Positions 2,155 to 16,885 of a DNA stretch of 64,000 nucleotides are shown one piece after another; position 1 is the stretch's first letter; the number at the start of each line of letters is the position of its first letter. Both the position numbers and the translations under genes were made by a program. This DNA comes from a virus. Its lineage: Duplodnaviria > Caudoviricetes. Location of the stretch: the IMG/VR virus record IMGVR_UViG_3300030419_006251, positions 1 to 64,000 of that record. The stretch is one strand, 5' to 3'. Under the pieces are notes generated by a model that had not been told where the DNA came from, did no database searches, and was given only the letters and a program-made list of their open reading frames with translations.

Positions 2155-2718
2155 TCATTCTATCTCGCACGGACACGCGCGGCCCTCCGCGCTCATTAGG
2201 GAAGAGTATGCCTGCAGTGTGTAACATTCATCCAAATCCTTTTCGTATGCAAGTTCATATTTTTCAGAAATTACAATAGAACTCGTACCCACTCTTTCCC
2301 AGTCGGCTACAAAATAGCTTCCCTCCTCAAGACTGTCTCTGCCATACATCTTTCGCCAGTCTCCATATGTTTCACTACTATACTCATAGAATTTATAGCA
2401 ACTGTTATCGCCCACAACTTGATTCAAAATTACATTGCTAGTGTCTAGAGACCACCAGTTGTTTACAAACTCATCTTCTTCAGAAGCCTCGTAATGTGCT
2501 GTGTCTTCTGATGTGGTGGCGCATGAGATGAGAACACAACTCAGAAATATGATAAATCCAGCGAGCCACAAGAACGAAAGCACAATCATGATCAAGTCTT
2601 TAAAGGCGAGGTCTTTCCAATATAACCACGCTCTAAAGCTCTCAATTCGGGCCTGTATCCATTCCTGTATCTTGCTCATCATCTGGGAAATACCTATATC
2701 CAATTTCAACCCACGCAT
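2155..2718 (-). CDS. putative lipoprotein / membrane-anchored protein
   Basis: Hydrophobic stretch ending 'FLSCVLISC' (lipobox-like), several Cys; true start probably downstream of 2718. Confidence 0.55.
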   Translation of the reverse strand: MRGLKLDIGISQMMSKIQEWIQARIESFRAWLYWKDLAFKDLIMIVLSFLWLAGFIIFLSCVLISCATTSEDTAHYEASEEDEFVNNWWSLDTSNVILNQVVGDNSCYKFYEYSSETYGDWRKMYGRDSLEEGSYFVADWERVGTSSIVISEKYELAYEKDLDECYTLQAYSSLMSAEGRACPCEIE

Positions 2719-3661
2719 TTGCTGGTGGAATCACATCAAAATTAACCTTTTGAGATGTGGCATCGTAGTGCCAATCCCAATTTAACTGCTGATCGATAAA
2801 AACTCTGATGGAGTCTTCTATCGGTTCGTGGGTAAGCGCCCACTCTTCGTGCGGCTCTAACTGATTCGATGCATCGGCAACGCCAGGGGACCAGTCTTCA
2901 GCACAAATATCCACAATGACTCCGCCGAAATAATTTGTTACATCCATATATCTGTCGCCAACATTCATAGTGCTTGGCGCTCTTTCGCACACCGAAACTG
3001 ATGGATCTTGAGTAACAATGCTAGAAATATATGCAGATCCATTTCTCTGTATACCGTACCAGCTTTTGAAGTCGTCAACATTTGCGAAATGATCATCGCT
3101 TTGGTCTTCCTCATCAGAAACTTGAACTACCAGTAGAGCGGCATCTGGGCGTAACCATGTTTGTGCGTAGGAGTTATTAACAAGATATTCGTATGCTGCG
3201 TCTAGGCCCTCCTCTCTGTGGCCGACGCCCATAGCCTCATACATATCTTTGGCGTCTTCAACATCGTCGCCAGGAACGAGCGGGAACTGTGCTTCCACGG
3301 AGGCTTTTGTTGGGTCATTGGAAGTCATAGCCAGTCTCCAGCCGGATGCTGGGAGTGCGTTCATCATAGCCTCGATGCCGGCCAATAACTCATCATCGTA
3401 TATATTCATCGATCCGGAAGTGTCAATTACCCAAAGAATGTCAACACCATCGACACTCATAGGTTGGACGAAAGAGTCGATCCATATTTCACCCGGATCG
3501 GAAGGCACTTCTGTCTCAATGTATACGGGCACCTCTACTTCGACATAAACAGTTTCGCTCTCGCCGCCGGTAACTATGGAATAATCCGGAGACATACAGG
3601 ATAAACTTGTAGACAAAAACACTGCTGTAAACATTAACATCAAGCGCCTTGCCCAGTCCAT
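2642..3661 (-). CDS. VWA (von Willebrand factor A) domain lipoprotein
   Basis: MIDAS motif 'DILWVIDTSGSM', 'VVQVSDEED'; signal peptide ending 'SLSC'; acidic DTG-repeat tail. Confidence 0.8.
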   Translation of the reverse strand: MDWARRLMLMFTAVFLSTSLSCMSPDYSIVTGGESETVYVEVEVPVYIETEVPSDPGEIWIDSFVQPMSVDGVDILWVIDTSGSMNIYDDELLAGIEAMMNALPASGWRLAMTSNDPTKASVEAQFPLVPGDDVEDAKDMYEAMGVGHREEGLDAAYEYLVNNSYAQTWLRPDAALLVVQVSDEEDQSDDHFANVDDFKSWYGIQRNGSAYISSIVTQDPSVSVCERAPSTMNVGDRYMDVTNYFGGVIVDICAEDWSPGVADASNQLEPHEEWALTHEPIEDSIRVFIDQQLNWDWHYDATSQKVNFDVIPPANAWVEIGYRYFPDDEQDTGMDTGPN

Positions 3662-3678
3662 TGTATTTCTCCTTTTTT

Positions 3679-4470
3679 CTATTCTGCCTCTTCGATCAGT
3701 ATCTCATATACATCTAAAAACTTTATAACCTTAGTCAGTTCTAAATCATTAACCGGATGTAGCCAAACTATGTCCTCTGTAAGTTGAGGTCCGATGAACC
3801 CTTGGTTCACATCAATAGCTCTTAATATTCCAACAACGCGGCCACGGTCATCGAATATCGCCGAACCGCTAGCGCCCGGCCATGCATAGGATTGCATTAT
3901 AATATTTCCGTGTTCTATGCCCGCTGCCAGTCCAAATATCGTAAGCAAGTCATGGTGTCCGGGAAAACCAGTGTATACCAGCGATTGCCCAATCAAGGAA
4001 CTATGATCTTGCAGTGCTTCAAACTCTATAGCTGTACGGCTCTCTAACGGCGAAGGAAGCAGCAGCACAGCCATATCCTGGCTTCCCTCGCTCTGTACAT
4101 ATGCTGTAATCGCCATACTTTGCTCACCGTCTTGTGCGACTATGATCATAAATGGCATATCTCTAACAACATGAGCAGCGGTGACTACAACCAAATGATC
4201 GCCCATACTAAAGTATGTGCCCGAACCTCTTACTGACATGTCTGGCGCATACACTTGTACTGCTGCGTTTCTGCTTCTATCTGCAACTCGGCGCATGCGC
4301 CTAGATTGGCTTGTTTGAACAGTAGTTTCCGATGCTTCAACTATACACTCAACGGCTGGAGTTTGAACGACTATCGAGGGGTTTGTCGCGGGAACTGCTG
4401 GACCACCACAGCTTAAAAAAACCATGCTGACTGCTGCGAATACAATCTTTTTTATACCCACCATGTGCAC
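3679..4470 (-). CDS. trypsin-like serine protease, lipoprotein
   Basis: 'VTAAHVV' (His), 'QDMAVL' (Asp), 'PGASGSA' (Ser); signal ending 'FLSC'. Confidence 0.85.
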   Translation of the reverse strand: MHMVGIKKIVFAAVSMVFLSCGGPAVPATNPSIVVQTPAVECIVEASETTVQTSQSRRMRRVADRSRNAAVQVYAPDMSVRGSGTYFSMGDHLVVVTAAHVVRDMPFMIIVAQDGEQSMAITAYVQSEGSQDMAVLLLPSPLESRTAIEFEALQDHSSLIGQSLVYTGFPGHHDLLTIFGLAAGIEHGNIIMQSYAWPGASGSAIFDDRGRVVGILRAIDVNQGFIGPQLTEDIVWLHPVNDLELTKVIKFLDVYEILIEEAE

Positions 4471-4614: not shown

Positions 4615-4854
4615 TTACCTTTTGTCGTCATCACATTTTTTTCGCTCGTCCGGACTTTTATTTTGTAAATATTTAATGGTAGAGCAAACATCCAGGCCAA
4701 GCGGGGGAGTAAAAAATGGAAAAAGTGCATGCAAGAACTGCATTAATGCGCCGGCCATTAGCCTTAAAGAGATGCCTACAGCGGTGACAAAATGTTCACA
4801 ATAATTTTCTCCTACTTCGGCAGGATGCTTGGTAAATAACTCTTTAATCTTCAT
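4615..4854 (-). CDS. DUF6356-like small protein
   Basis: 'FTKHPAEVGENYCEHF...LHALFPF' pattern. Confidence 0.7.
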   Translation of the reverse strand: MKIKELFTKHPAEVGENYCEHFVTAVGISLRLMAGALMQFLHALFPFFTPPLGLDVCSTIKYLQNKSPDERKKCDDDKR

Positions 4855-7003
4855 CTTCTACAGGTGCCTCATCGTCCATGTGTTCATTAGGTGCGCGCAA
4901 GACCTTAAATCCTGCTTGTGTCAGCTTGTCCATTGTGTGCTTCATGTCTTCTGGATCGTGGTGAATCGCAATTCCTCCGTGAGATTTCCAAGGTTTAATA
5001 TTCGTCATAAAGTCATCAATCAGAACATTTCTTTGACCATCGGACATGGCCCATTCATATTTATCATGCGACATAAAAACCTGCTTCGGGCTCGGTCTAA
5101 GATTCTTCGCGATCCACTTTTCTTTGCCTCGTTCAGAACCTTTGCCCATCGGCGCGGTGAGGATCATTGGCTCATATTTTTTAATGGCATTCCACAGTTC
5201 CCGGCCTCCGGGCATCCAAGGCAGATTTGCCCAGAAATCTTCATCGTCTCTGAGTCTTTCGTACATATATTTTATTGCGGCCTTTCTAATTGTCGTTGAG
5301 CCATCACCATTCTTTTCAATATGTTCTTCTTCAATAACATCCACATCTTCTCGACGCATAGCCATGCGTAGTTGACCTAAAGAATTAAGACTTCCTGAAC
5401 CACCAACATCATCTGGCAACTTGTCGTTATTAACATCGTCGTTAATTTGCTTTATGGCTCCACGAACAAAGTCCACCAGAACTCCATCCATGTCGCAATA
5501 AATTTGGTGAGGCGCTTGTTGAGCTTCCGTCAAGAATTTGCGCCAATTGTTAAATATTTTTTGCTCCGCAGTTACGGAATAACTACTCTCTCCATCGATA
5601 CTCCACTCGTCTTCTTCCTCATCTCCGAGATCTGCTATTGTGTTGAGGTTCTTTATATATTCTTCGTCAGAAACCTCGGACCCGGGTCCGTGTTCGTATG
5701 CCGCAGCGTCAACATCGCGTGTTTGAAAAGTGTTGTACGGTACTGGATTGTCCTCCGGGTCGTCGGGGTTGCCGCCATAGGGATCCCTCGGATGACTACC
5801 ATGCTCACTGTCTTCGCGCTGGCTCTTAAGATCGCGCATCTGCTGTGCGTCCCAAGCGGTATGTCGGCGAGTATTTTCCCAGTTGCCGGTCTCCGGATTG
5901 AACTCCGTATAGGCCCGATCTGTGGTGGTTGTGACGGTGGGATCGGGATCGATGTAGTCTCCGTCTGGATCCACGGCATCGGGATAGCCGTCGCCATCAT
6001 TGTCTACCCCAACAGTCAAATCATCATAGTGCCTGCTCTTTTGGGCGCGAGACCATATAAGGCCGGCGTATGGCTCCCAATGTCTCTCGTGATGTTCTTC
6101 ATCACCGTGATGGGACAGGTCTGGGCCAAATGCCGCTTCCATACGCTTATTGTGAATTTGATCCATAGACTGGCTGCCGATGTTGTCCAGTCGACGCTGC
6201 ACCATGTCGAGCGCTCCTTCCCCGCCGACTGTATTCCAATCGAGTGGCTCGTCGGGATCGAGGCCCATCTTTGCCGCTCCGGCGCGCATGACTTCCGAAG
6301 ATCCCGGATCGTATCCGGCTCGGTGTGAGCCCCAGAAGGCGCTATGGGGTTCATGCTCGTCAGATGCGTGTCGAATGAGCCAATTTACACTTATCCCTGT
6401 CGTGCTAGGATCTATTCCAGCATAGGGGTTGATATTCATGCCAAGGACATGGCCATATTCGTGCCCCATGGTATCGTAAAGAGCTGCTCCGGAGCGCGAT
6501 GCCGCGTCTATCCTAATTCCAGTATCCATATCTGAATGTGCTTCGTCGTAGTATGCGCCGCCCGCGTAGCCTCTTGTGCCTCCATCGAGGCCAACTTGAA
6601 TCTCACCGCTTTCGGGAATGGCTGTGTGACGCACAATCTTGTTGGGGTCTAATACAGAGTTAATTTGTGGTGTTATATGTTCTGTATAATACGCCAGTGC
6701 GTTTTCTCTGGTTGGCTCGATCGATGTCCCGGGGAGCAAGTCTGTCTGAATATAATCAAGCCACGATAAGGTGCCTGCTCCGTGTTCCTGTTCGTTTTGT
6801 CCAACGCGATAAGAGTCTTGATAAACAGAGATAGCATTCAACTGTGCTGCTCGTACTCGCTCGTCGTATTGCTGTTGGGTCATTGGGCCCGCGGTGGTGG
6901 CGTTCGGTGTCGCGACGGTTCCATCGGGATAGCCGTCGCCATCGGTGTCTACTCCGGTCTGTTCAGTTATAAACCTTCGCCAATTTTCAAATAGTAGTTT
7001 CAT
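4844..7003 (-). CDS. tagged multidomain protein: zincin (HExxH) domain plus C-terminal HAD 5'(3')-deoxyribonucleotidase-like domain
   Basis: N-terminal 'MKLLFENWRRFITE'; 'GHEYGH' and 'EPYA'; two DxDGDGYPD motifs; internal 'IFNNWRKFLTE' then HAD motifs 'IYCDMDGVLVDF', 'ILTAP', 'K', 'LIDD'. Confidence 0.8.
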   Translation of the reverse strand: MKLLFENWRRFITEQTGVDTDGDGYPDGTVATPNATTAGPMTQQQYDERVRAAQLNAISVYQDSYRVGQNEQEHGAGTLSWLDYIQTDLLPGTSIEPTRENALAYYTEHITPQINSVLDPNKIVRHTAIPESGEIQVGLDGGTRGYAGGAYYDEAHSDMDTGIRIDAASRSGAALYDTMGHEYGHVLGMNINPYAGIDPSTTGISVNWLIRHASDEHEPHSAFWGSHRAGYDPGSSEVMRAGAAKMGLDPDEPLDWNTVGGEGALDMVQRRLDNIGSQSMDQIHNKRMEAAFGPDLSHHGDEEHHERHWEPYAGLIWSRAQKSRHYDDLTVGVDNDGDGYPDAVDPDGDYIDPDPTVTTTTDRAYTEFNPETGNWENTRRHTAWDAQQMRDLKSQREDSEHGSHPRDPYGGNPDDPEDNPVPYNTFQTRDVDAAAYEHGPGSEVSDEEYIKNLNTIADLGDEEEDEWSIDGESSYSVTAEQKIFNNWRKFLTEAQQAPHQIYCDMDGVLVDFVRGAIKQINDDVNNDKLPDDVGGSGSLNSLGQLRMAMRREDVDVIEEEHIEKNGDGSTTIRKAAIKYMYERLRDDEDFWANLPWMPGGRELWNAIKKYEPMILTAPMGKGSERGKEKWIAKNLRPSPKQVFMSHDKYEWAMSDGQRNVLIDDFMTNIKPWKSHGGIAIHHDPEDMKHTMDKLTQAGFKVLRAPNEHMDDEAPVEDED
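5977..5998. repeat. 22-bp direct repeat, copy 1 (encodes DGDGYPD)
   Basis: catcgggatagccgtcgccatc identical to 6922-6943. Confidence 0.9.
6922..6943. repeat. 22-bp direct repeat, copy 2 (encodes DGDGYPD)
   Basis: catcgggatagccgtcgccatc identical to 5977-5998. Confidence 0.9.
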
Positions 7004-10000
7004 TCCGGATCCTCCACCGACGAAATTTGCTGTAGTCTCTTAATTGTAAAGTTAGAAATACCTGGGATCGATTGCATACCCGGCAACAGTTCTTTCTGTA
7101 CATAGTTACGGGGTGGAAGATTGCGGTTAAGTTGAAACTTAATTGAAAGGTTGGTTATAAATGTGTGAGGTAAATCTCTTGTTGTGCCGGGCACAACACT
7201 GACGATTGTAACTCCCGGAATGCCACGAATATCGGTGAGCGTTTGGTCGCGATTGCCGCCCTTTCTTTTATGAATATTAATGCCGCAAATCGCCTCATAA
7301 ACATTCTGAATGTACGCTTCTTCGAGTGTCGGAAGTTCACAAACTTCCTCGGCCGGCAACTCGCAGGCGACGGTTTCTCCGCGTGTATTGTGTACGCATG
7401 GTGCTACGGAGCCGCACTCGGGACATTCCTCGCCGATCGTAACCTTTATTTTTAAAGCCTCATGCAAAACCGCTCTTATTGTTTCTCTTAGAGCACTAGA
7501 GTTGTACTGGTAAAGCTCGGATCTCGGCACCATGCCCACCGCGTCTGATAGGGCCGGGCCGGCCTCCGGATTGGCGATATTGCGTAACCAATAATTACTA
7601 TTAATAAGGTTTTCTGGATCGGTTGCTTCTGCGTTTTCATTCCAAAAATCTTCCCAATTTATATTACTGGTGTACAAGCCATCTGGATCTATCTCGGTTA
7701 AATTTCCTAAAGCATCGTGATACATAGTTATGCCGTCGCCGCCTGAATCTTGCCAAAATTGCCAATGCAAGTGTGGACCAGTAGAAGTACCCTCGTTACC
7801 AATGGTCCCCAAGAGGGCGCCGGCAGGAAGTCTCTGTCCGATTTCGTAGTTTACGACACTGCCCATGTGACTGCTGCTGCCATAGTACCATGACTGTGTT
7901 CGGTTGTCCCACCATCTTAGCACTACTTGTGGTCCATGGCCCGGGGCCTCTCTTATAGATACGACTTGTGCGTTCGCGGGTGATCTTATCTGACTAGCTG
8001 CCTCAGTTGCTGCTAGCATTATGTCACTATCGTTGGCCGTGTGCACATCAATACCTTGTTGTTGCAAGTGATGTAGTTCCCAAGCAAATCTTTCAGGATC
8101 AGATAGCATATTGTCCCTAGTTAGCCATCTCGGAAAAGCGATATCTGTGCCTGCATGAAACCTTTCTTGTTGGTGCACTGGGTGGAATCTATTGCCTTGA
8201 GGGCTCGTTACTATACTTGCTGGTGAAGTAAGTGGGCTGTAATCTTCAGGATCGTTGGAATACATCTCTCTGGCCTCCATCTCTAGGCGCAGATTCGTTT
8301 CAGCGGAATAGTCGTCCAGGCTTCCACCGGGATTTTCTTCTAACCACCGGGCTGCAGCCATTGCATCGGCAAGATCGGAATCCTCCTCAAAACCGCCCTC
8401 GCCTCGTTCTAGCCGTTCGTATTCCGCATCAGTTAAGTCATCGTTGTCATCAGTGTCGTCAATTCCGAAATCGTGCTCATGTTCGGGGTCGTCGTCGTCC
8501 CTGTGCGGAAGGCCGGCGCCCATCGACGGCAAGTCTTCAGGGCCGCCTCGACCATATAAACTTTCCACTATAGCGTGTCGAATTGAATTTCTTAATTTAT
8601 TACCTTTCATAGTTTGGGCCGGCCTCTCCTTATAAATAGATTCATAAATCACATTTCGTATTGCCTCCTCAAGCTGCCGTCTTGAGTTCGGAGGATCAAT
8701 CGTAAGTGCCCTCGCGAGGGCGGCGTCATAATCGCGGTTAGCCGGTTCCTCGGCTGTCTCTGCGTTAATCTCCGCATCTGCGACCGGGGACATCGGTGAT
8801 AGCTCTTGTTCCACGCGCTCTGCCTGTTCAATATCCGCATCAAGCATCCTTTCCGCGCTTCCCTCGGCATCAGTAAGGGCGTTATATAGCTTGCTGTAAT
8901 TTGGGCCTTCCCATTTATATTGCCGAAAGACTGCGCCGGGGGCCCCAGCCTCTCTCATGGCCTGCTGTATATACCCGGACCAGTGCCTTGGTGTGCCGAC
9001 TGAAGAGTGTTCCGGAGGTACTGATGTTAGAGAACCTTGCTGGAGTGGACGGAGATACTGGTTGATGAGCACCCTTCTCTCCAGCTTGTTCATTTCATCC
9101 CAAGATTCGTTTGTCCACAATATTAAAGCTTTGGCGCCGGCTGCTCTCGGATTAAATCTAGGGTCGTCTTCTGGAACATCATCGAATCTCATAGCATATG
9201 TGTCTAAAGCATTTAGAAATTGATCTGCTGTGCCTCTGCTTACTGCTGCAGCTTCTGCCTTCTCTTTATTCTCGATTGCCTCTTTAATTGCTGGACCCCA
9301 TAGACTTTGGAACGCTTTTGCAATTGTTTTAATTTCTTTATCAACATATTCCATAAATGCAATTGCACCTTTAATTTCGCGTTCAGAATCAACAGAAAGA
9401 ATCCTGACTCTGATTCCAAAGCCTAAATATCTAGAGTCTTCATCGTCTGCTTCTGGCAACCCTGCTTGCTCTGAAGCGGTTGGTGTAGCAAGAACGGTTA
9501 TAAACTCCACATTCTTTGCAAAGTCTGGGAGTACATCCTGATCGGGCGGCGCCTGGTATCTCTCCCCAAAGTCAAGCGACAATTGCTTACCGGCATACGC
9601 TTCCGCTTCCTTTTGTATGTCGCTAAGGGCCATGGCTATTTTATGCATGCCTAGACCTGTGTGCTTAACTGATGGCGGTGTGCCGAATCCAAGTGAGAAC
9701 CGCGTGCCGCCGAACGCTGTCTCAAGATCAGCCACCGTCCAGCCTGTTGCTCTATCGTGCTTTCGGAGCGAGGCTGGCATCAGCGTGGATGTGGGGATAT
9801 AGTTGATAGAACTTTGCCCCACGCCGGGAGATTTGGTTACAAACAACATTTCGCCATCGCCATCATCCGATGGAGGATAGAAGTTAAAATGTTGAAGTCG
9901 ATCGGCCAATTCCTCTGCTGGGGTGGGTAGGGGTTCGCTATGCTCTTCGTCCCAGCCAGTGGGATAATTAAGCTTATCGAAATAATTTCTTTCTATGTGA

Positions 10001-12162
10001 CCTTCTTCAACTAGCGACAGTCTGATTGCTTCCCGAATGTTCGGAACCTTTTGGTCGATATCATCCTTAATATAATCAATAAAGTTCTCGTAGTCGTCCG
10101 GCGTATAGCCGTCCTCCATGCTCCAGCGGAATCGCACTTGTAAAACTGTTGTTGGGCCCTTTTCACCTATTGCGCCGCCTTTTTGAACATTAACCTCCCA
10201 GTCTGTCTCTTCTGAGTAGATGTCCAAATTGGCTTCGATTACGCTTTCAAATTGTCTTCTCTTCTGGTAGTCGCCGCCCCAACTCTTTGGAATTATGTAT
10301 GGATTTCCGTCCTCATCTGCCCCTCTAGATGTGTAACTATTGCCGTAATCTTCCATGATGCCGTTCCAGCCTAGAAGGTTTAATTCGATTGACAAGTCTC
10401 CACTGGCATAGACATAGGGCTCTTCCCCGTCATCATTAACCTCGGCGTGAGTGCTACAGTATTCCAAACTGTTGGCAGCATAATTATTAAGCTCGTCAAC
10501 TCTCTGCTCATATTCATCAAAAAGGCTTTCCTGCTCATCTTCGTCATGACGCTCAACATTCTGATACAAGCTATAAGACTTAAACTTTGGATCGTACTGC
10601 CTAAACAGCGCATCCAAAGTGGTGCCGTCCTGCGTATCTTCATATGAACCACCATACCTAGTCAAACTGTACCAGTTGGGGGCATGCAAGCCTCCCTGCT
10701 CTGGGTGGCGCCCAAGAAAACCATTGTCTCTAAATGTCTGTTCTTGACTCTCTGCGGCCCACTTGACCATCGACTTGACAAAGCCGGGAGGAACTGCACC
10801 ATATGTTCTGTGTTCTGGGGCGATAAACTGCATATCAGTGTCGCTGTCTTCAAACTTTCTGAATCTGACGCGACCCTTTGCAACAATACCTTTAATTCCG
10901 CGCTGTTTGTCTCTAAAGATCTCCTTATCATCGAATTCGGATATATCTCCGATTTCTCGGGCTCTCTCTTCCCTGTCGCCTTCCTTTTTCTTCGGCATCA
11001 AAGACCATTCCTTGCCCTCAGCCTTAGCAACTACTGCGTCCATCACAGCCTGATCGGTTAGCAAGCCGCGAACGGCAGGGTCCAGTCCTCCATACACAGG
11101 GTCGGCATCGAAGATTGCTTGGATTGCGAATTCAAGCATATCCTCGTCCTCGCTAGTTTTGATATTGTCAATTATTTTGTATATCGATGACCAGCGAGGC
11201 TGCATGGTGGTAATATGATTTTTGATATACTCTTCTGCTTGGTACGCTGCGTGTGCTTTAAGTAACTTGCTGGTGGATCGATCCACATCGTATGCCGCTT
11301 CAGGATCGTCTGCGGTATCGTATTCTTCGTACAAACCGGACATAAGCATCTCGTACATTGTCGTTGGGACAAGGTATGCAATGGGTCCGTGGCCCTTGGC
11401 TTCTGCCACAGCACAATGAAAATGGCTATGTCCTTCGCTATGGCAAGACTTGATACTGCCGATGTCACTCATGCGGAGTACATCGACAGGGTGTCGCGAG
11501 ATAATAACTGTGTAGTCAACCTCGTCGCCGCTGAACAGGCCTTCAATCTCATTCCAATTATTATCTTTTGTATAATAAGTCTGTTTCTTGTGCCACCACT
11601 CCAACAGCTCTCTGTCTAATTTCTTCTCTTTGACAAGCTTGGCAATTGCTTTGCCCATTCCTAGCTTGTCTGTGCGCTGAATAACCTCGCCCTTGCGCGG
11701 TCCAGCTGGGATCTTCTTTTCGTAACTTTTGGCGAGGTCCAAGTCTGCAACTTCAATATCTTCTTCATAAAAGCCACCTCCCTGATCTGCAAGTCTTTGT
11801 CTCTTTTGCTTGACTTTGCGTGTGGGAAACTTGTTGGAGGTATGCATACCTCCCTCCCATGGGACCAGTTCACCAACCTTCCAGCCATCCTTTTTGAGGA
11901 CGCGAACGACCTTCTTAAGATTCAACGCATCTTCAGAGTCGAACGGCATCGCCATGCGCATCTTGCCGTCAAACAGTTCATCAAACGAATAGTCCATGAC
12001 CGATGCATCGCGCATCCATTTATAGATTTTATCTGCGGTGTCGCGAGAAATCTCGTTGAGTATTTGTAAATTTTCTTGGAGTTGAGAAGACTTATTTCTG
12101 CGTGACTCCTCTATCTTAGTTCGCGCTTGAAACTCTCTCCAAGCCTTGAAATATTTTTCCAT
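7000..12162 (-). CDS. 1720-aa tagged multidomain protein with M23 metallopeptidase domain; paralog of 41659-44277
   Basis: N-terminal 'YFKAWREF'; 'SRHPVDVLRMSD...SCH...CAVAEA.GHG.IAY' shared with the 872-aa ORF; M23 motifs 'HAGTD' and 'STGPHLH'. Confidence 0.8.
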   Translation of the reverse strand: MEKYFKAWREFQARTKIEESRRNKSSQLQENLQILNEISRDTADKIYKWMRDASVMDYSFDELFDGKMRMAMPFDSEDALNLKKVVRVLKKDGWKVGELVPWEGGMHTSNKFPTRKVKQKRQRLADQGGGFYEEDIEVADLDLAKSYEKKIPAGPRKGEVIQRTDKLGMGKAIAKLVKEKKLDRELLEWWHKKQTYYTKDNNWNEIEGLFSGDEVDYTVIISRHPVDVLRMSDIGSIKSCHSEGHSHFHCAVAEAKGHGPIAYLVPTTMYEMLMSGLYEEYDTADDPEAAYDVDRSTSKLLKAHAAYQAEEYIKNHITTMQPRWSSIYKIIDNIKTSEDEDMLEFAIQAIFDADPVYGGLDPAVRGLLTDQAVMDAVVAKAEGKEWSLMPKKKEGDREERAREIGDISEFDDKEIFRDKQRGIKGIVAKGRVRFRKFEDSDTDMQFIAPEHRTYGAVPPGFVKSMVKWAAESQEQTFRDNGFLGRHPEQGGLHAPNWYSLTRYGGSYEDTQDGTTLDALFRQYDPKFKSYSLYQNVERHDEDEQESLFDEYEQRVDELNNYAANSLEYCSTHAEVNDDGEEPYVYASGDLSIELNLLGWNGIMEDYGNSYTSRGADEDGNPYIIPKSWGGDYQKRRQFESVIEANLDIYSEETDWEVNVQKGGAIGEKGPTTVLQVRFRWSMEDGYTPDDYENFIDYIKDDIDQKVPNIREAIRLSLVEEGHIERNYFDKLNYPTGWDEEHSEPLPTPAEELADRLQHFNFYPPSDDGDGEMLFVTKSPGVGQSSINYIPTSTLMPASLRKHDRATGWTVADLETAFGGTRFSLGFGTPPSVKHTGLGMHKIAMALSDIQKEAEAYAGKQLSLDFGERYQAPPDQDVLPDFAKNVEFITVLATPTASEQAGLPEADDEDSRYLGFGIRVRILSVDSEREIKGAIAFMEYVDKEIKTIAKAFQSLWGPAIKEAIENKEKAEAAAVSRGTADQFLNALDTYAMRFDDVPEDDPRFNPRAAGAKALILWTNESWDEMNKLERRVLINQYLRPLQQGSLTSVPPEHSSVGTPRHWSGYIQQAMREAGAPGAVFRQYKWEGPNYSKLYNALTDAEGSAERMLDADIEQAERVEQELSPMSPVADAEINAETAEEPANRDYDAALARALTIDPPNSRRQLEEAIRNVIYESIYKERPAQTMKGNKLRNSIRHAIVESLYGRGGPEDLPSMGAGLPHRDDDDPEHEHDFGIDDTDDNDDLTDAEYERLERGEGGFEEDSDLADAMAAARWLEENPGGSLDDYSAETNLRLEMEAREMYSNDPEDYSPLTSPASIVTSPQGNRFHPVHQQERFHAGTDIAFPRWLTRDNMLSDPERFAWELHHLQQQGIDVHTANDSDIMLAATEAASQIRSPANAQVVSIREAPGHGPQVVLRWWDNRTQSWYYGSSSHMGSVVNYEIGQRLPAGALLGTIGNEGTSTGPHLHWQFWQDSGGDGITMYHDALGNLTEIDPDGLYTSNINWEDFWNENAEATDPENLINSNYWLRNIANPEAGPALSDAVGMVPRSELYQYNSSALRETIRAVLHEALKIKVTIGEECPECGSVAPCVHNTRGETVACELPAEEVCELPTLEEAYIQNVYEAICGINIHKRKGGNRDQTLTDIRGIPGVTIVSVVPGTTRDLPHTFITNLSIKFQLNRNLPPRNYVQKELLPGMQSIPGISNFTIKRLQQISSVEDPE

Positions 12163-12192: not shown

Positions 12193-12200
12193 TAAATAGT
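12193..12200 (-). promoter_or_regulatory. putative late-promoter motif ACTATTTA
   Basis: 30 nt upstream of the 1720-aa gene, just downstream of a terminator. Confidence 0.55.
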
Positions 12201-15313: not shown

Positions 15314-16885
15314 CTAATCAACCTGAATTATTGCATGTCCGGTCGTAATAAGAGTGCCGGCGACAGAAACTGCATTCTGGAGTGCTGAACGGGTAACTTT
15401 CACCGGATCAATAATTCCAGATTGAAACATGTTTGCAACTTCTCCCGTTGAAAAGTTGTATCCCTCAAATTCTGAAAGGTTTAATATCTTGTCCTGAAGT
15501 ATATCTGCTGATTCGCCGGCATTATCAGCCATTTGTCTAAATGGTGCACACACCGCCCTCTTAATGATCTCCACGCCCAAACCTTGTTGTTCATTGCTGG
15601 TTTCAACCTGTACATCCGCTCCTACCCTAATGAGAGCAATTCCCCCTCCAGGAACAATGCCCTCCTGTTGTGCAGATTTGACCGCCTCTAGAGCGTCTTC
15701 GATACGATGCTTTTTCTCTATCATTTCTACTTCCGTGGCGGCGCCGACATGTATAATAGCTACCCCGGAAGCCAGTCTGGTTATCCTTTCTTGAATTCTC
15801 TCGCACTCATAAAGCGAATCAGTTGCAGATAGCTCGTTTTTTAATTGTTGAATGCGAACTTCAACTTGCTCGTAATCCCCATGGCCTCCAACAATAGTGG
15901 TGCGATTTTTGCCAATCTCAATGGTTCTGCATTGGCCTAGGTGCTCAATTTTCACATCTCTCAGATTTAAATCCGTAGATTTCGTCACATATGTAGCGCC
16001 CGTTGAGAGTGCTAGGTCGCTCAGTATATTTCGACGCTCTTCCCCGTAACGAGGAGCCTTAATTGCTGCTACTTTAAGCGTACCTCTCATGGAATTCATA
16101 ATTAAAGCAGCCAACGCTTGTCCCTCTATGTTTTCCGCGACTAGAATTAAAGGTCGTGATTCTCTTGCGGTGACTTCCAACACAGGAAGAAGCTCTTCGA
16201 CACTATCGATTGTTCCATCGGCAACCAATACAAACGCGTTCTCATAGTTTGTCACGCCGCGGCGCTCATCAGTTATAAACGACGGAGATGCATACCCAGA
16301 ACCAAATTGAAACCCCTCAACCACATCTAGGGAAGTCTCTAAGGAGCGTGCCTCTTCGATTGAGATGGCGCCGTCTTTTCCAACAAGGTCAACAGCTTTT
16401 GCAATTAGCTTTCCTATACCTTCGTCACCATTCGCAGAAATTGTGGCGATATGTTCTATGTCTTCAACGCTTGAAATCGGTTTTGCTATGTTGTGTAGCT
16501 TGTCAACAATAACGCCGACCGCCTTATCCATACCTCGCTTTAATTCAACCGGGCTGGCGCCGGCAGTCAAGTATGCTTGAGCTTGAGTTAGTACTGCCCT
16601 AGCCAATACCGTTGCGGTGGTTGTGCCATCGCCGGCCGTATTGTTTGTCTCTGCAGATGCTTGCTTAATAATTTCAGCACCAGCGTTTTGCATAGGGTCT
16701 TCTAATGTCACAAACTGTGCTACAGTAACGCCATCCTTTGTAATTATGGGCCGCTTGCCCTTCTCTTGTAATATAACATTGCGACCTTTTGGTCCCAGTG
16801 TTGCAGCAACATTGTCTGCTAATATATTAACACCATCTAAAATTCTCTGGTTTAAAGTTGAACCAGAGTCATATTTTTTTGTCAA
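15314..16885 (-). CDS. groEL: chaperonin GroEL (phage-encoded)
   Basis: 'TLGPKGRNV', 'ITKDGVTVA', 'AGDGTTTATVLA', 'IVPGGG', 'GIIDPVKV'; no GGM tail. Confidence 0.97.
   Translation of the reverse strand: MTKKYDSGSTLNQRILDGVNILADNVAATLGPKGRNVILQEKGKRPIITKDGVTVAQFVTLEDPMQNAGAEIIKQASAETNNTAGDGTTTATVLARAVLTQAQAYLTAGASPVELKRGMDKAVGVIVDKLHNIAKPISSVEDIEHIATISANGDEGIGKLIAKAVDLVGKDGAISIEEARSLETSLDVVEGFQFGSGYASPSFITDERRGVTNYENAFVLVADGTIDSVEELLPVLEVTARESRPLILVAENIEGQALAALIMNSMRGTLKVAAIKAPRYGEERRNILSDLALSTGATYVTKSTDLNLRDVKIEHLGQCRTIEIGKNRTTIVGGHGDYEQVEVRIQQLKNELSATDSLYECERIQERITRLASGVAIIHVGAATEVEMIEKKHRIEDALEAVKSAQQEGIVPGGGIALIRVGADVQVETSNEQQGLGVEIIKRAVCAPFRQMADNAGESADILQDKILNLSEFEGYNFSTGEVANMFQSGIIDPVKVTRSALQNAVSVAGTLITTGHAIIQVD

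What the first reader, a model, noticed from the sequence alone, without database searches (positions are those of the whole stretch)
4844..7003. Tag-zincin-tag-HAD polyprotein, architecturally twinned with tag-zincin-tag-Nudix at 38915-40330
Seen: both proteins have a GHExxH motif, a downstream 'EPYA', then 'LNTIA', then 'VT..xIFxxWRx[FY]LxE', then a different nucleotide-hydrolase domain (HAD DxDGV here, Nudix box there). Knowledge: HExxH plus a downstream Glu are zincin Zn ligands; HAD 5'-nucleotidases and Nudix enzymes act on nucleotide pools, caps and signalling nucleotides. Inference: a duplicated zincin-tag chassis has captured interchangeable nucleotide-degrading modules, perhaps injected to sanitise dNTP pools or destroy immune second messengers. 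The zincin may process the polyprotein or cleave host defence proteins.
Basis: partly seen in the sequence, partly recalled or inferred. Interest (0 to 1): 0.75.

Follow-up and report, generated by a model that had tools for sequence, protein, structure and literature searches.

The report
Two-tag fusion proteins for phage-head cargo
Two genes of an uncultured 200-kb T4-like marine phage each join a rare zinc-protease-like domain to a nucleotide-cleaving enzyme through a second copy of a short address tag that closely mirrors phage T4's capsid-loading signal, so they are probably two-part cargo proteins that are loaded into the head, cut apart there and injected with the DNA.

Summary
ORFs 4844-7003 (719 aa) and 38915-40330 (471 aa), both on the minus strand, share this layout: N-terminal tag, HExxH domain with a conserved Glu ('EPYA'), 'LNTIA', a second tag, then an NT5C-type HAD nucleotidase or a Nudix domain.

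The window is the start of a complete 200,760-bp IMG/VR myovirus that has a T4-type capsid protein and a T4-type prohead protease. The tag (M..F..W[RK].[FY][LI].E) has the same spacing as T4's capsid targeting sequence MKTYQEFIAE and ends in that protease's L/I-x-E cleavage motif. This scan had already read the tag that way on this same genome (e1-5390400, e1-5390390).

New here:
- A complete related phage encodes the Nudix and the HAD as separate tagged proteins. Their N-terminal tags align exactly on the internal tags, so the 'twins' are in-frame fusions of two tagged genes.
- The HExxH domain is a very small, virus-only family. It occurs with Nudix, with HAD, or alone followed by another tagged gene.
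- At least 200 different tagged proteins occur in IMG/VR.

The zincin fold is only weakly supported. Packaging, cleavage and substrates are inferred, not shown. I rate it a new variant of a known kind, of moderate to good interest.

The parts
4844..7003 (-). ORF P0001, 719 aa: tag, zincin-like domain, tag, NT5C-type HAD nucleotidase. Its start overlaps the stop of the upstream tagged 1720-aa ORF.
   Evidence: orthologue P0011 (715 aa) on two independent metagenome contigs
6962..7003 (-). N-terminal tag MKLLFENWRRFITE (aa 1-14), ending in I-T-E
5576..6961 (-). Zincin-like domain plus acidic/TSP3-like linker (aa 15-476). HEYGH at 6449-6463, EPYA at 6065-6076, LNTIA at 5633-5647.
   Evidence: family profile match E = 1.6e-104
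5525..5563 (-). Internal tag QKIFNNWRKFLTE (aa 481-493), preceded by V-T-A-E. Predicted cleavage after E493.
   Evidence: It aligns residue for residue with the N-terminal tag of a free-standing 210-aa HAD protein of phage G001 (44% identity, E = 1e-51)
4847..5524 (-). NT5C-type HAD 5'(3')-deoxyribonucleotidase module (aa 494-719). Motif I DMDGV at 5480-5494, ILTAP at 5150-5164, LIDDF at 5009-5023.
   Evidence: phrog_2643 E = 8e-21; phage homologues annotated 5'-3' deoxyribonucleotidase; motifs
38915..40330 (-). ORF P0002, 471 aa: tag, zincin-like domain, tag, Nudix. Its stop overlaps the start of the tagged SET-domain gene.
   Evidence: five orthologues with the same architecture (P0003, P0007-P0010)
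40289..40330 (-). N-terminal tag MTKYYKKWREFLTE (aa 1-14), ending in L-T-E
39338..40288 (-). Zincin-like domain (aa 15-331). HETAH at 39845-39859, EPYA at 39587-39598, LNTIA at 39365-39379.
   Evidence: H158, E159, H162 and Y247 invariant and E245 near-invariant in 11 family members; AF2 pTM 0.68; best structural neighbours are gluzincins at Z 4.2-5.1
39290..39328 (-). Internal tag KLIFDKWRNYLKE (aa 335-347), preceded by V-T-E. Predicted cleavage after E347.
   Evidence: V332, E334, K335, F338, K340, W341, R342 and E347 invariant in six orthologues; aligns with the N-terminal tag of the free-standing 140-aa Nudix of G001
38918..39289 (-). Nudix hydrolase module (aa 348-471); Nudix box at 39101-39169
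   Evidence: Pfam NUDIX E = 1.4e-15; full G-x5-E-x7-R-E-U-x-E-E-x-G-U box; substrate class unresolved
7000..12162 (-). Tagged 1720-aa protein (MEKYFKAWREF...) with an M23 peptidase domain. It is first in an operon with P0001.
36322..38301 (-). Tagged 659-aa protein (MKDIFQEWRAF...), no known family
38520..38918 (-). Tagged 132-aa SET-domain protein (MTYHKKWKMFLSE)
41659..44277 (-). Tagged 872-aa protein (MSDFHHKWRQFLAE) that also ends in a tag-like tail ...MYNKWRKYLCK*

Best explanation
The two ORFs are paralogous two-module precursors of phage-head internal (ejected) proteins.

Proposed history:
- Each arose when a tagged gene for a rare HExxH (zincin-like) protein fused in frame with the next tagged gene downstream.
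- That downstream gene was a Nudix hydrolase in one case and an NT5C-type HAD deoxyribonucleotidase in the other.

Proposed function of the tag:
- The roughly 14-residue tag is this phage lineage's counterpart of the T4 capsid targeting sequence.
- An aromatic pair (W8, F/Y11) targets the precursor to the scaffolding core of the prohead.
- The [LI]-x-E that ends the tag is the cleavage site of the phage's gp21-type (Peptidase_S77) prohead protease.

Proposed processing:
- The N-terminal tag is removed after E14.
- The internal tag is cut after E347 in P0002 and after E493 in P0001. It may also be cut after the invariant Glu that occupies the former start-Met position.
- One zincin-like protein and one nucleotide hydrolase are therefore released in equal numbers inside the capsid and leave with the DNA at infection.

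Shown: the architecture, the paralogy, the fusion origin, the family distribution, the T4-type head genes and the motif conservation.
Inferred: packaging, cleavage, ejection and enzyme activities.
For: Genome context:
- The genome is a complete 200.8-kb myovirus. It has Peptidase_S77 (E = 1.7e-29), a Gp23 capsid protein (E = 2e-57) and a tail sheath.
- The protease keeps the GELxHP and SSRGLGS blocks that it shares with T4 gp21. The T4 gp23 cleavage site LTE65|A aligns with LRE58|A in this capsid protein.

Match to the T4 signal:
- The T4 capsid targeting sequence is MKTYQEFIAE (PMC8442874). Residues 4 and 7 serve targeting and residues 8 and 10 serve processing. Asp at position 10 blocks processing. 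gp21 cuts after L/I-x-E (PMC9026906).
- Here W8-x-x-F11-L12-x-E14 has the same spacing.

Tag distribution and conservation:
- The tag heads at least 6 unrelated proteins in this genome and 201 unique ORFs in 109 IMG/VR stretches.
- Among 82 tagged ORFs not constrained by the seed pattern, 64 have [LIVM]-x-E, 65 have Glu at W+6 and none has Asp.
- Four of four complete tag-bearing genomes tested encode Peptidase_S77.
- In 596 Gb of prokaryote genomes, only one true N-terminal tag was found.

Fusion origin:
- Phage G001 (complete, 204 kb) has no zincin domain. It has a free-standing tag-Nudix of 140 aa (57% identity to P0002 aa 341-466) and a free-standing tag-HAD of 210 aa (44% identity to P0001 aa 483-699, E = 1e-51, tag aligned on tag).
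- P0005 is a tag-zincin protein that stops after LNSIA. Another tagged gene starts 27 nt downstream.
- The internal tag is invariant or nearly so in six orthologues whose zincin halves are only about 45% identical.

Other tagged cargo fits virion-delivered proteins and injected effector-type enzymes: M23 peptidase and SET here, SLT transglycosylase and others, protein kinase, and a Fic-motif protein read directly from its sequence.

A CTATTTA motif lies 14-67 nt upstream of the scaffold-position, adaptor-like, sheath and tailspike-like genes, and also upstream of the two tagged operons.
Against: - There is no proteomic, structural or genetic evidence of packaging or cleavage, and no cultured relative carries the tag or the zincin domain.
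- Similarity to the T4 signal is at the level of a 7-residue pattern, too short for a statistical test of homology.
- [LI]-x-E occurs about as often as chance predicts in both proteins overall, so only its position and conservation count.
- P0001's upstream site is T-A-E, a poor match to L/I-x-E.
- The CTATTTA motif also precedes a PhoH-like gene, its timing class is unknown, and no T4-type TATAAATA late promoter is present.
- The direction of evolution (fusion here versus fission or loss in G001) is not rooted.
Confidence: 0.55

Rival explanations
1. The proteins are packaged, or act in the cell, as uncleaved bifunctional enzymes. The internal tag would be a relic of the fusion that now serves as a helical linker or as a second targeting element, not as a cleavage site.
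For: - Internal tags are rare elsewhere: among 305 tag-containing ORFs in IMG/VR loci, almost none has a convincing internal copy.
- T4 IPIII is cut only once despite having other possible sites (PMC8442874), so a motif alone does not guarantee cleavage.
- In the AF2 model the internal tag is a helix, H331-349.
Against: - A relic linker should drift. Instead W, R, [LI] and Glu are invariant across orthologues whose zincin halves are about 45% identical, and Glu is never Asp.
- The stretch before the tag is modelled with pLDDT below 50 (residues 324-336), as expected of an exposed junction.
Confidence: 0.2
2. The zincin-like domain is an autoprocessing metallopeptidase. After delivery it would cut its own precursor, or other tagged precursors, to release the hydrolase. 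This is what has been proposed for the zincin-like peptidase domains of phage and plasmid 'polyvalent proteins', and it is the first reader's idea.
For: - HExxH and a downstream Glu are conserved in all family members.
- Gluzincin endopeptidases dominate the top structural neighbours.
- Weak feature and fold hits point to 'large polyvalent protein associated' domains.
Against: - The same tag sits at the junction and at the N-terminus of many proteins in genomes that lack the zincin altogether, such as G001. Tag removal therefore cannot in general depend on it.
- The junction matches the specificity of a protease that the phage demonstrably encodes.
- All structural matches are below the level the tools treat as reliable.
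Confidence: 0.1
3. The tag has nothing to do with the capsid. It could be a shared N-terminal module for another purpose, such as docking to another phage machine or chaperonin, membrane targeting by an amphipathic helix, or a degron. The two ORFs would then be ordinary cytoplasmic fusion enzymes of nucleotide metabolism.
For: - No direct evidence of packaging exists.
- The phage encodes its own GroEL.
- Tagged genes sit beside replication genes such as the DnaB helicase, ribonucleotide reductase and polymerase, not in the head module.
Against: - The exact spacing match to the T4 capsid targeting sequence, and the terminal Glu that is never Asp, are what a gp21 substrate needs.
- The tag co-occurs with Peptidase_S77 in all complete genomes tested.
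- The cargo set includes cell-wall enzymes typical of virion-delivered proteins: M23 and SLT.
- In T4 the internal-protein and alt genes also lie outside the head gene cluster (for alt).
Confidence: 0.15

Closest known systems
[quoted passage not shown]
   Same: - A short N-terminal propeptide is shared by otherwise unrelated proteins.
- The spacing is the same: aromatic, two residues, Phe, Leu/Ile, one residue, Glu.
- It ends in the gp21 L/I-x-E site, and the phage encodes gp21- and gp23-type head genes.
- The cargo set is diverse and shuffled between related phages.
   Different: - The tag is 14 rather than 10 residues, with an invariant Trp in place of Tyr.
- Most cargo proteins are recognisable enzymes rather than small basic proteins.
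- Two proteins carry a second, internal copy at a domain junction, and I found no description of that for T4 in the papers read.
- Packaging is not demonstrated.
T4 Alt (ADP-ribosyltransferase packaged in the head and injected)
   Same: It is an enzyme delivered with the DNA and trimmed by gp21 at L/I-x-E-type sites at both ends (PMC9026906). It is encoded outside the head gene cluster.
   Different: Alt has a single catalytic module, lacks the IP-type CTS and is unrelated in sequence. Here two modules would be separated by the cut.
Ejection/inner-body proteins of phiKZ, 201phi2-1 and SPN3US, processed by gp21-like proteases
   Same: Many head-internal proteins are cut after Glu at short motifs by a diverged gp21 homologue, sometimes at several sites within one precursor (PMC9026906).
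   Different: Those phages use S/A-x-E and have no common portable N-terminal tag. The capsid lineage and proteins are different.
Polyvalent proteins of phages and conjugative elements with zincin-like peptidase domains (from my own knowledge: Iyer et al. 2017)
   Same: They are multi-module proteins thought to enter the cell with the DNA and to combine a zincin-like domain with effector enzymes. There are weak structural and feature hints.
   Different: Those are very large proteins without a capsid-targeting-type tag. No significant sequence or fold match was obtained, so this is a resemblance, not membership.
Free-standing phage Nudix hydrolases and NT5C-type 5'(3')-deoxyribonucleotidases (phrog_1198, phrog_2643)
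   Same: The C-terminal modules belong to these families and keep their catalytic motifs.
   Different: The one cultured-phage homologue checked for a tag, the HTVC008M nucleotidase, has none. The other cultured-phage hits cover only the hydrolase domain of the query and are not fused to a zincin-like domain.

Membership tests
T4-type CTS-bearing head internal proteins | Short N-terminal propeptide shared by otherwise unrelated proteins of one phage | tested here: met
   Six or seven unrelated ORFs in this genome carry it: 6 strict hits against 0.01 expected. In IMG/VR there are 201 unique tagged ORFs in at least 64 sequence groups.
T4-type CTS-bearing head internal proteins | Propeptide ends in the prohead protease motif L/I-x-E, with Glu required | tested here: met
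   All strict copies end in [LI]-x-E. In 82 tags unconstrained by the seed pattern, 64 have [LIVM]-x-E, 65 have Glu and none has Asp. The rule is taken from PMC9026906.
T4-type CTS-bearing head internal proteins | Phage encodes a gp21-family prohead protease and a gp23-type capsid | tested here: met
   PF03420 E = 1.7e-29 and PF07068 E = 2e-57 in the same genome. The capsid protein has an aligned LRE|A site. Four of four complete tag-bearing genomes have PF03420.
T4-type CTS-bearing head internal proteins | Sequence homology of the tag to MKTYQEFIAE | tested here: inconclusive
   The [YW]-x-x-F-[IL]-x-E spacing is identical, but the segment is too short for a significance test.
T4-type CTS-bearing head internal proteins | Protein is present in the virion, with the tag removed, and is ejected with the DNA | not testable with these tools
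   This needs virion proteomics or a cultured member.
Zincin (HExxH) metallopeptidases, gluzincin type | HExxH motif on a helix | tested here: met
   H158, E159 and H162 are invariant in 11 members. They lie in the modelled helix 152-168.
Zincin (HExxH) metallopeptidases, gluzincin type | Third zinc ligand (Glu) on a downstream helix, close in space to the two His | tested here: inconclusive
   E245 is near-invariant (Asp in one member) and starts helix 244-262. It lies 87 residues from the motif, and its geometry could not be measured.
Zincin (HExxH) metallopeptidases, gluzincin type | Zincin fold or profile match to a described peptidase family | tested here: inconclusive
   - No Pfam, PHROG or NCBIfam hit.
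- Foldseek on PDB, AFDB and BFVD found nothing at E <= 0.001.
- In VIA-align, the nine best matches are metallopeptidases, most of them classic gluzincins (neprilysin, ECE-1, PPEP-2, anthrax LF, PepO, Zmp1), but only at Z 4.2-5.1.
- The PDB profile gives small zinc proteases at E = 0.06.
- Atlas models match at TM 0.3-0.4 to U49, M91, M48 and M3.
Nudix hydrolases | Nudix box G-x5-E-x7-R-E-U-x-E-E-x-G-U and Pfam PF00293 above its cut-off | tested here: met
   58 bits against a cut-off of 21.1. The box is intact at aa 388-410.
NT5C-type HAD 5'(3')-deoxyribonucleotidases | HAD motifs I (DxDxV/T), II (T/S) and IV (DD), and a family profile match | tested here: met
   DMDGV, ILTAP and LIDDF are present. 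phrog_2643 scores E = 8e-21. Pfam NT5C scores only 14.9 bits, below its cut-off of 24.8, so membership rests on the PHROG profile and on phage homologues.

The most novel reading that the evidence does not exclude
The tag may be more than an address label. It could be a portable 'joint' that lets a large clade of marine T4-like phages assemble and re-assort head-delivered enzyme sets. In this reading, in-frame tag-to-tag fusions create polyproteins that the prohead protease resolves into equal numbers of partners. Tag-like tails left at ORF ends would be scars of that shuffling. The zincin-like domain, a previously undescribed virus-only family, would be an injected metalloprotease that works with the co-delivered Nudix or nucleotidase in the first seconds of infection, for example against host nucleotide-based immune signalling or nucleotide pools.
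Probability: 0.25. Interest if true: 0.8.

Novelty: new variant of a known kind. Interest (0 to 1): 0.6.

Why it matters
If the reading holds, T4's capsid-targeting principle is not a peculiarity of the T-even phages. It would be an old, widely used delivery system in abundant uncultured marine myoviruses, and it would carry recognisable enzymes into the cell ahead of any gene expression. The enzymes seen include Nudix, deoxyribonucleotidase, SET methyltransferase, kinase, Fic and cell-wall hydrolases.

The two fusion proteins would be the first examples I know of in which the targeting signal also serves as an internal processing site, which would fix the ratio of two co-delivered proteins.

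The tag also gives a simple sequence handle for listing candidate injected effectors in metagenomes. It suggests a natural design rule for loading two proteins at once into T4-type capsids.

Tried and rejected
- Foldseek of the zincin model against PDB, AFDB clusters, BFVD and the ESM Atlas found no match at E <= 0.001, and TM scores were at most 0.4. The best BFVD rows are crAss-like 'morphogenesis' or structural proteins at probability 0.82-0.84 and E about 0.1, which I treat as leads only.
- The full-length P0002 fold, made with six orthologues, was poor (pLDDT 43, pTM 0.28) and was not used.
- Complex prediction of the scaffold-position protein (aa 190-413) with P0002 aa 1-40 returned no answer, so it is evidence neither way.
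- A search for a T4-type late promoter TATAAATA found none on the coding strand and 4 on the other strand, about the chance level.
- tblastn of both proteins against 50,697 cultured-phage records hit only the HAD or Nudix parts and never the zincin part. The Pelagibacter phage HTVC008M nucleotidase has no tag.
- NCBIfam gave no subfamily for the Nudix domain; every equivalog is far below its cut-off.
- I rejected a nucleotide-level element (promoter, ribosome-binding site or recombination box) as the cause of the tag, because codons vary synonymously between copies.
- I rejected an assembly artefact as the cause of the fusions, because both architectures recur in independent metagenomes.
- A literature search for the tag strings found nothing relevant.
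- My first grouping of tagged ORFs chained unrelated short proteins into a '73-member family'. Only 6 of 201 have a Nudix box, so the count of 64 groups is approximate.
Full report
**What is there.** The window is the first 64 kb of a single-contig, CheckV-complete IMG/VR virus record of 200,760 bp with 42% G+C. Nearly all genes lie on the minus strand.
- Window genes include a tail sheath, a DnaE-type polymerase, a DnaB helicase, ribonucleotide reductase, UvsX and a GroEL.
- Outside the window the genome encodes a T4-type major capsid protein (PF07068, E = 2e-57) and a T4-type prohead protease (Peptidase_S77, E = 1.7e-29). A long scaffold-position gene lies just upstream of the capsid gene.
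- The nearest capsid proteins are those of uncultured huge phages, Flavobacterium phage immuto, Microcystis phage Mel-JY01 and Rhodothermus phage RM378. This is therefore a distant T4-like myovirus.

**The observation.**
- The N-terminal halves align at E = 1e-6 (24% identity). The LNTIA-to-second-tag segments align at E = 5e-4.
- P0002 ends in a Nudix domain (Pfam E = 1.4e-15) with a complete Nudix box. P0001 ends in an NT5C-type HAD nucleotidase (phrog_2643 E = 8e-21) with DMDGV, ILTAP and LIDDF motifs.
- The strict tag occurs six times in the proteome against 0.01 expected from shuffles. Codon usage differs between copies, so it is the peptide that is conserved.

**What the tag is.** The same leader heads a 1720-aa M23-peptidase protein, a 659-aa protein, a 132-aa SET-domain protein and an 872-aa protein.
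- T4's capsid targeting sequence is MKTYQEFIAE (PMC8442874). Residues 4 and 7 are needed for targeting and residues 8 and 10 for processing. Asp at position 10 blocks processing. gp21 cuts after L/I-x-E (PMC9026906).
- The tag here reads W8-x-x-F/Y11-L/I12-x-E14, which is the same spacing.
- T4 gp23's cleavage site LTE65|A aligns with LRE58|A in this capsid protein. The protease keeps the GELxHP and SSRGLGS blocks it shares with gp21.
- A degenerate DNA pattern for the tag finds 109 stretches in IMG/VR. These hold 201 unique N-terminally tagged ORFs of many unrelated kinds. Pfam recognises Nudix, SLT transglycosylase, protein kinase, AAA_33, transglutaminase-like, cytidylyltransferase-like and alpha/beta-hydrolase domains among them.
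- In 82 tags whose downstream positions were not fixed by the search pattern, 64 have [LIVM]-x-E, 65 have Glu at W+6 and none has Asp. That is the signature expected of a Glu-specific processing site.
- All four complete tag-bearing genomes tested encode Peptidase_S77.
- In 596 Gb of prokaryote genomes, only one true N-terminal tag turned up, on a short MAG contig.
- This scan had already read the tag as capsid-targeting-like on this same genome (e1-5390400, e1-5390390). I reached the same reading before I looked those notes up.

**Origin of the twin architecture.** The internal tags are the N-terminal tags of formerly separate genes.
- In the complete 204-kb phage G001, seven tagged genes cluster at 2.3-9.7 kb: 8 forward pattern matches in the genome, none on the reverse strand or in the control.
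- One is a 140-aa tag-Nudix protein, 57% identical to P0002 aa 341-466. A further tagged gene at 10,152-10,784, with a variant tag, is a 210-aa tag-HAD protein, 44% identical to P0001 aa 483-699 (E = 1e-51); its tag lies exactly on P0001's internal tag. G001 has no zincin domain.
- The converse also exists. P0005 (353 aa) is a tag-zincin protein that stops shortly after LNSIA, and 27 nt later the next gene opens with MQKLFENWREYLNE.
- A partial relative, G002, has a tagged protein with a Fic motif fused to a Nudix domain.
- In both fusions the former start-Met position is an invariant Glu (V-T-E|K... in P0002, T-A-E|Q... in P0001). The tag could therefore be excised on both sides, but this is an inference.

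**The zincin-like family.**
- An exhaustive HMMER pass over 1.84 billion cluster representatives found only four relatives. A profile search of 5.8 billion sequences found nine matches, two of which are the window's own P0001 and P0002.
- Five relatives are tag-zincin-tag-Nudix orthologues. P0011 is a tag-zincin-tag-HAD orthologue found on independent contigs. The rest are stand-alone or truncated.
- H158, E159, H162 and Y247 are invariant, and E245 is nearly so.
- An AF2 model reaches pTM 0.68 with a confident helical core.
- Foldseek finds nothing significant. An all-against-representatives VIA-align search puts neprilysin, ECE-1, PPEP-2, anthrax lethal factor, PepO, Zmp1 and thermolysin at the top, but only at Z 3.2-5.1. 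Atlas models point the same way at TM 0.3-0.4.
- I therefore call the domain zincin-like, with the fold not proven.

**Mechanism.** The most economical reading has four steps.
1. The precursor is targeted to the prohead core by its tag or tags.
2. The gp21-type protease removes the N-terminal tag.
3. The same protease cuts at the internal tag.
4. One zincin-like protein and one hydrolase per precursor stay in the head and are ejected with the DNA.

Supporting context is a CTATTTA motif 14-67 nt upstream of the scaffold-position, adaptor-like, sheath and tailspike-like genes and of the two tagged operons. Its timing class is unknown, and it also precedes a PhoH-like gene.

What the enzymes do after entry is open. 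The Nudix domain is generic, and nothing here speaks for or against action on immune nucleotides.

**Rivals.** Three alternatives remain:
- an uncleaved bifunctional fusion;
- zincin autoprocessing, which the tag's wide use in zincin-free genomes makes unlikely;
- a tag function unrelated to the capsid.

**Verdict.** This is a new variant of a known kind: T4-type capsid targeting, here with tandem tags that make two-part cargo precursors and with a new zincin-like family. No experiment yet shows packaging or cleavage.

Noticed in passing
window 41659-41700 (minus strand); also L009 4640-4678 and L024 5743-5775: Three large tagged ORFs end in a tag-like tail just before their stop codon: ...MYNKWRKYLCK* here, ...VVKRWKQFLRG* in G001 and ...LFENWRGFLKED* in another phage. 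Here the ATG of the next gene (WavE-like, untagged) lies inside the tail's last codons. These may be scars of tag-to-tag recombination, or C-terminal propeptides like those of T4 Alt.
   Followed up: partly
window 12193-12199 and 44285-44291 (minus strand); further copies elsewhere in the genome: The motif (a)aCTATTTA(t) lies 14-67 nt upstream of the scaffold-position, head-tail adaptor-like, tail sheath and tailspike-like genes, a PhoH-like gene and both tagged operons. It is roughly ten times more frequent in intergenic DNA than my own rough estimate of chance. It may be this lineage's late-type promoter or leader element. TTGACAT (a -35-like motif) clusters instead at 182-198 kb among small genes.
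   Followed up: partly
window 35546-36325 (minus strand): A 259-aa nucleotidyltransferase-like protein (MTPAP-like/NTP_transf_2, weak Pfam hits; phrog_36119) starts with a degenerate tag, MKAFLDSWSKF...ITE. A 280-aa relative in G002 carries a canonical tag (MKMTDFNRKWGKYLTE).
   Followed up: partly
L007 11357-11716 and L008 9774-10133 (close relatives of the window's first 12 kb): The precomputed annotation gives PF26761 (Acb5) for a 119-aa gene a few kb downstream of the zincin-HAD orthologue. The ORFs I tested in the corresponding part of the window had no such Pfam hit.
   Followed up: partly
window 2642-4470 (minus strand): Two apparent lipoprotein or secreted-protein genes lie directly downstream of P0001: a Trypsin_2 serine protease with a signal-like N-terminus, and a 339-aa protein with a Cys-containing leader. 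The order is conserved in relatives L007 and L008.
   Followed up: no
window 15314-16885 (minus strand): The phage encodes a GroEL-type chaperonin (phrog_5725, E = 3.5e-145).
   Followed up: no
L005 2404-3393: A 329-aa tagged protein combines a Fic motif (HPFDDGNGRSGR) with a C-terminal Nudix domain 52% identical to that of P0002. Only a degenerate tag remnant (FWKGTLSE) lies between them. This is another fusion partner for the same Nudix module.
   Followed up: partly
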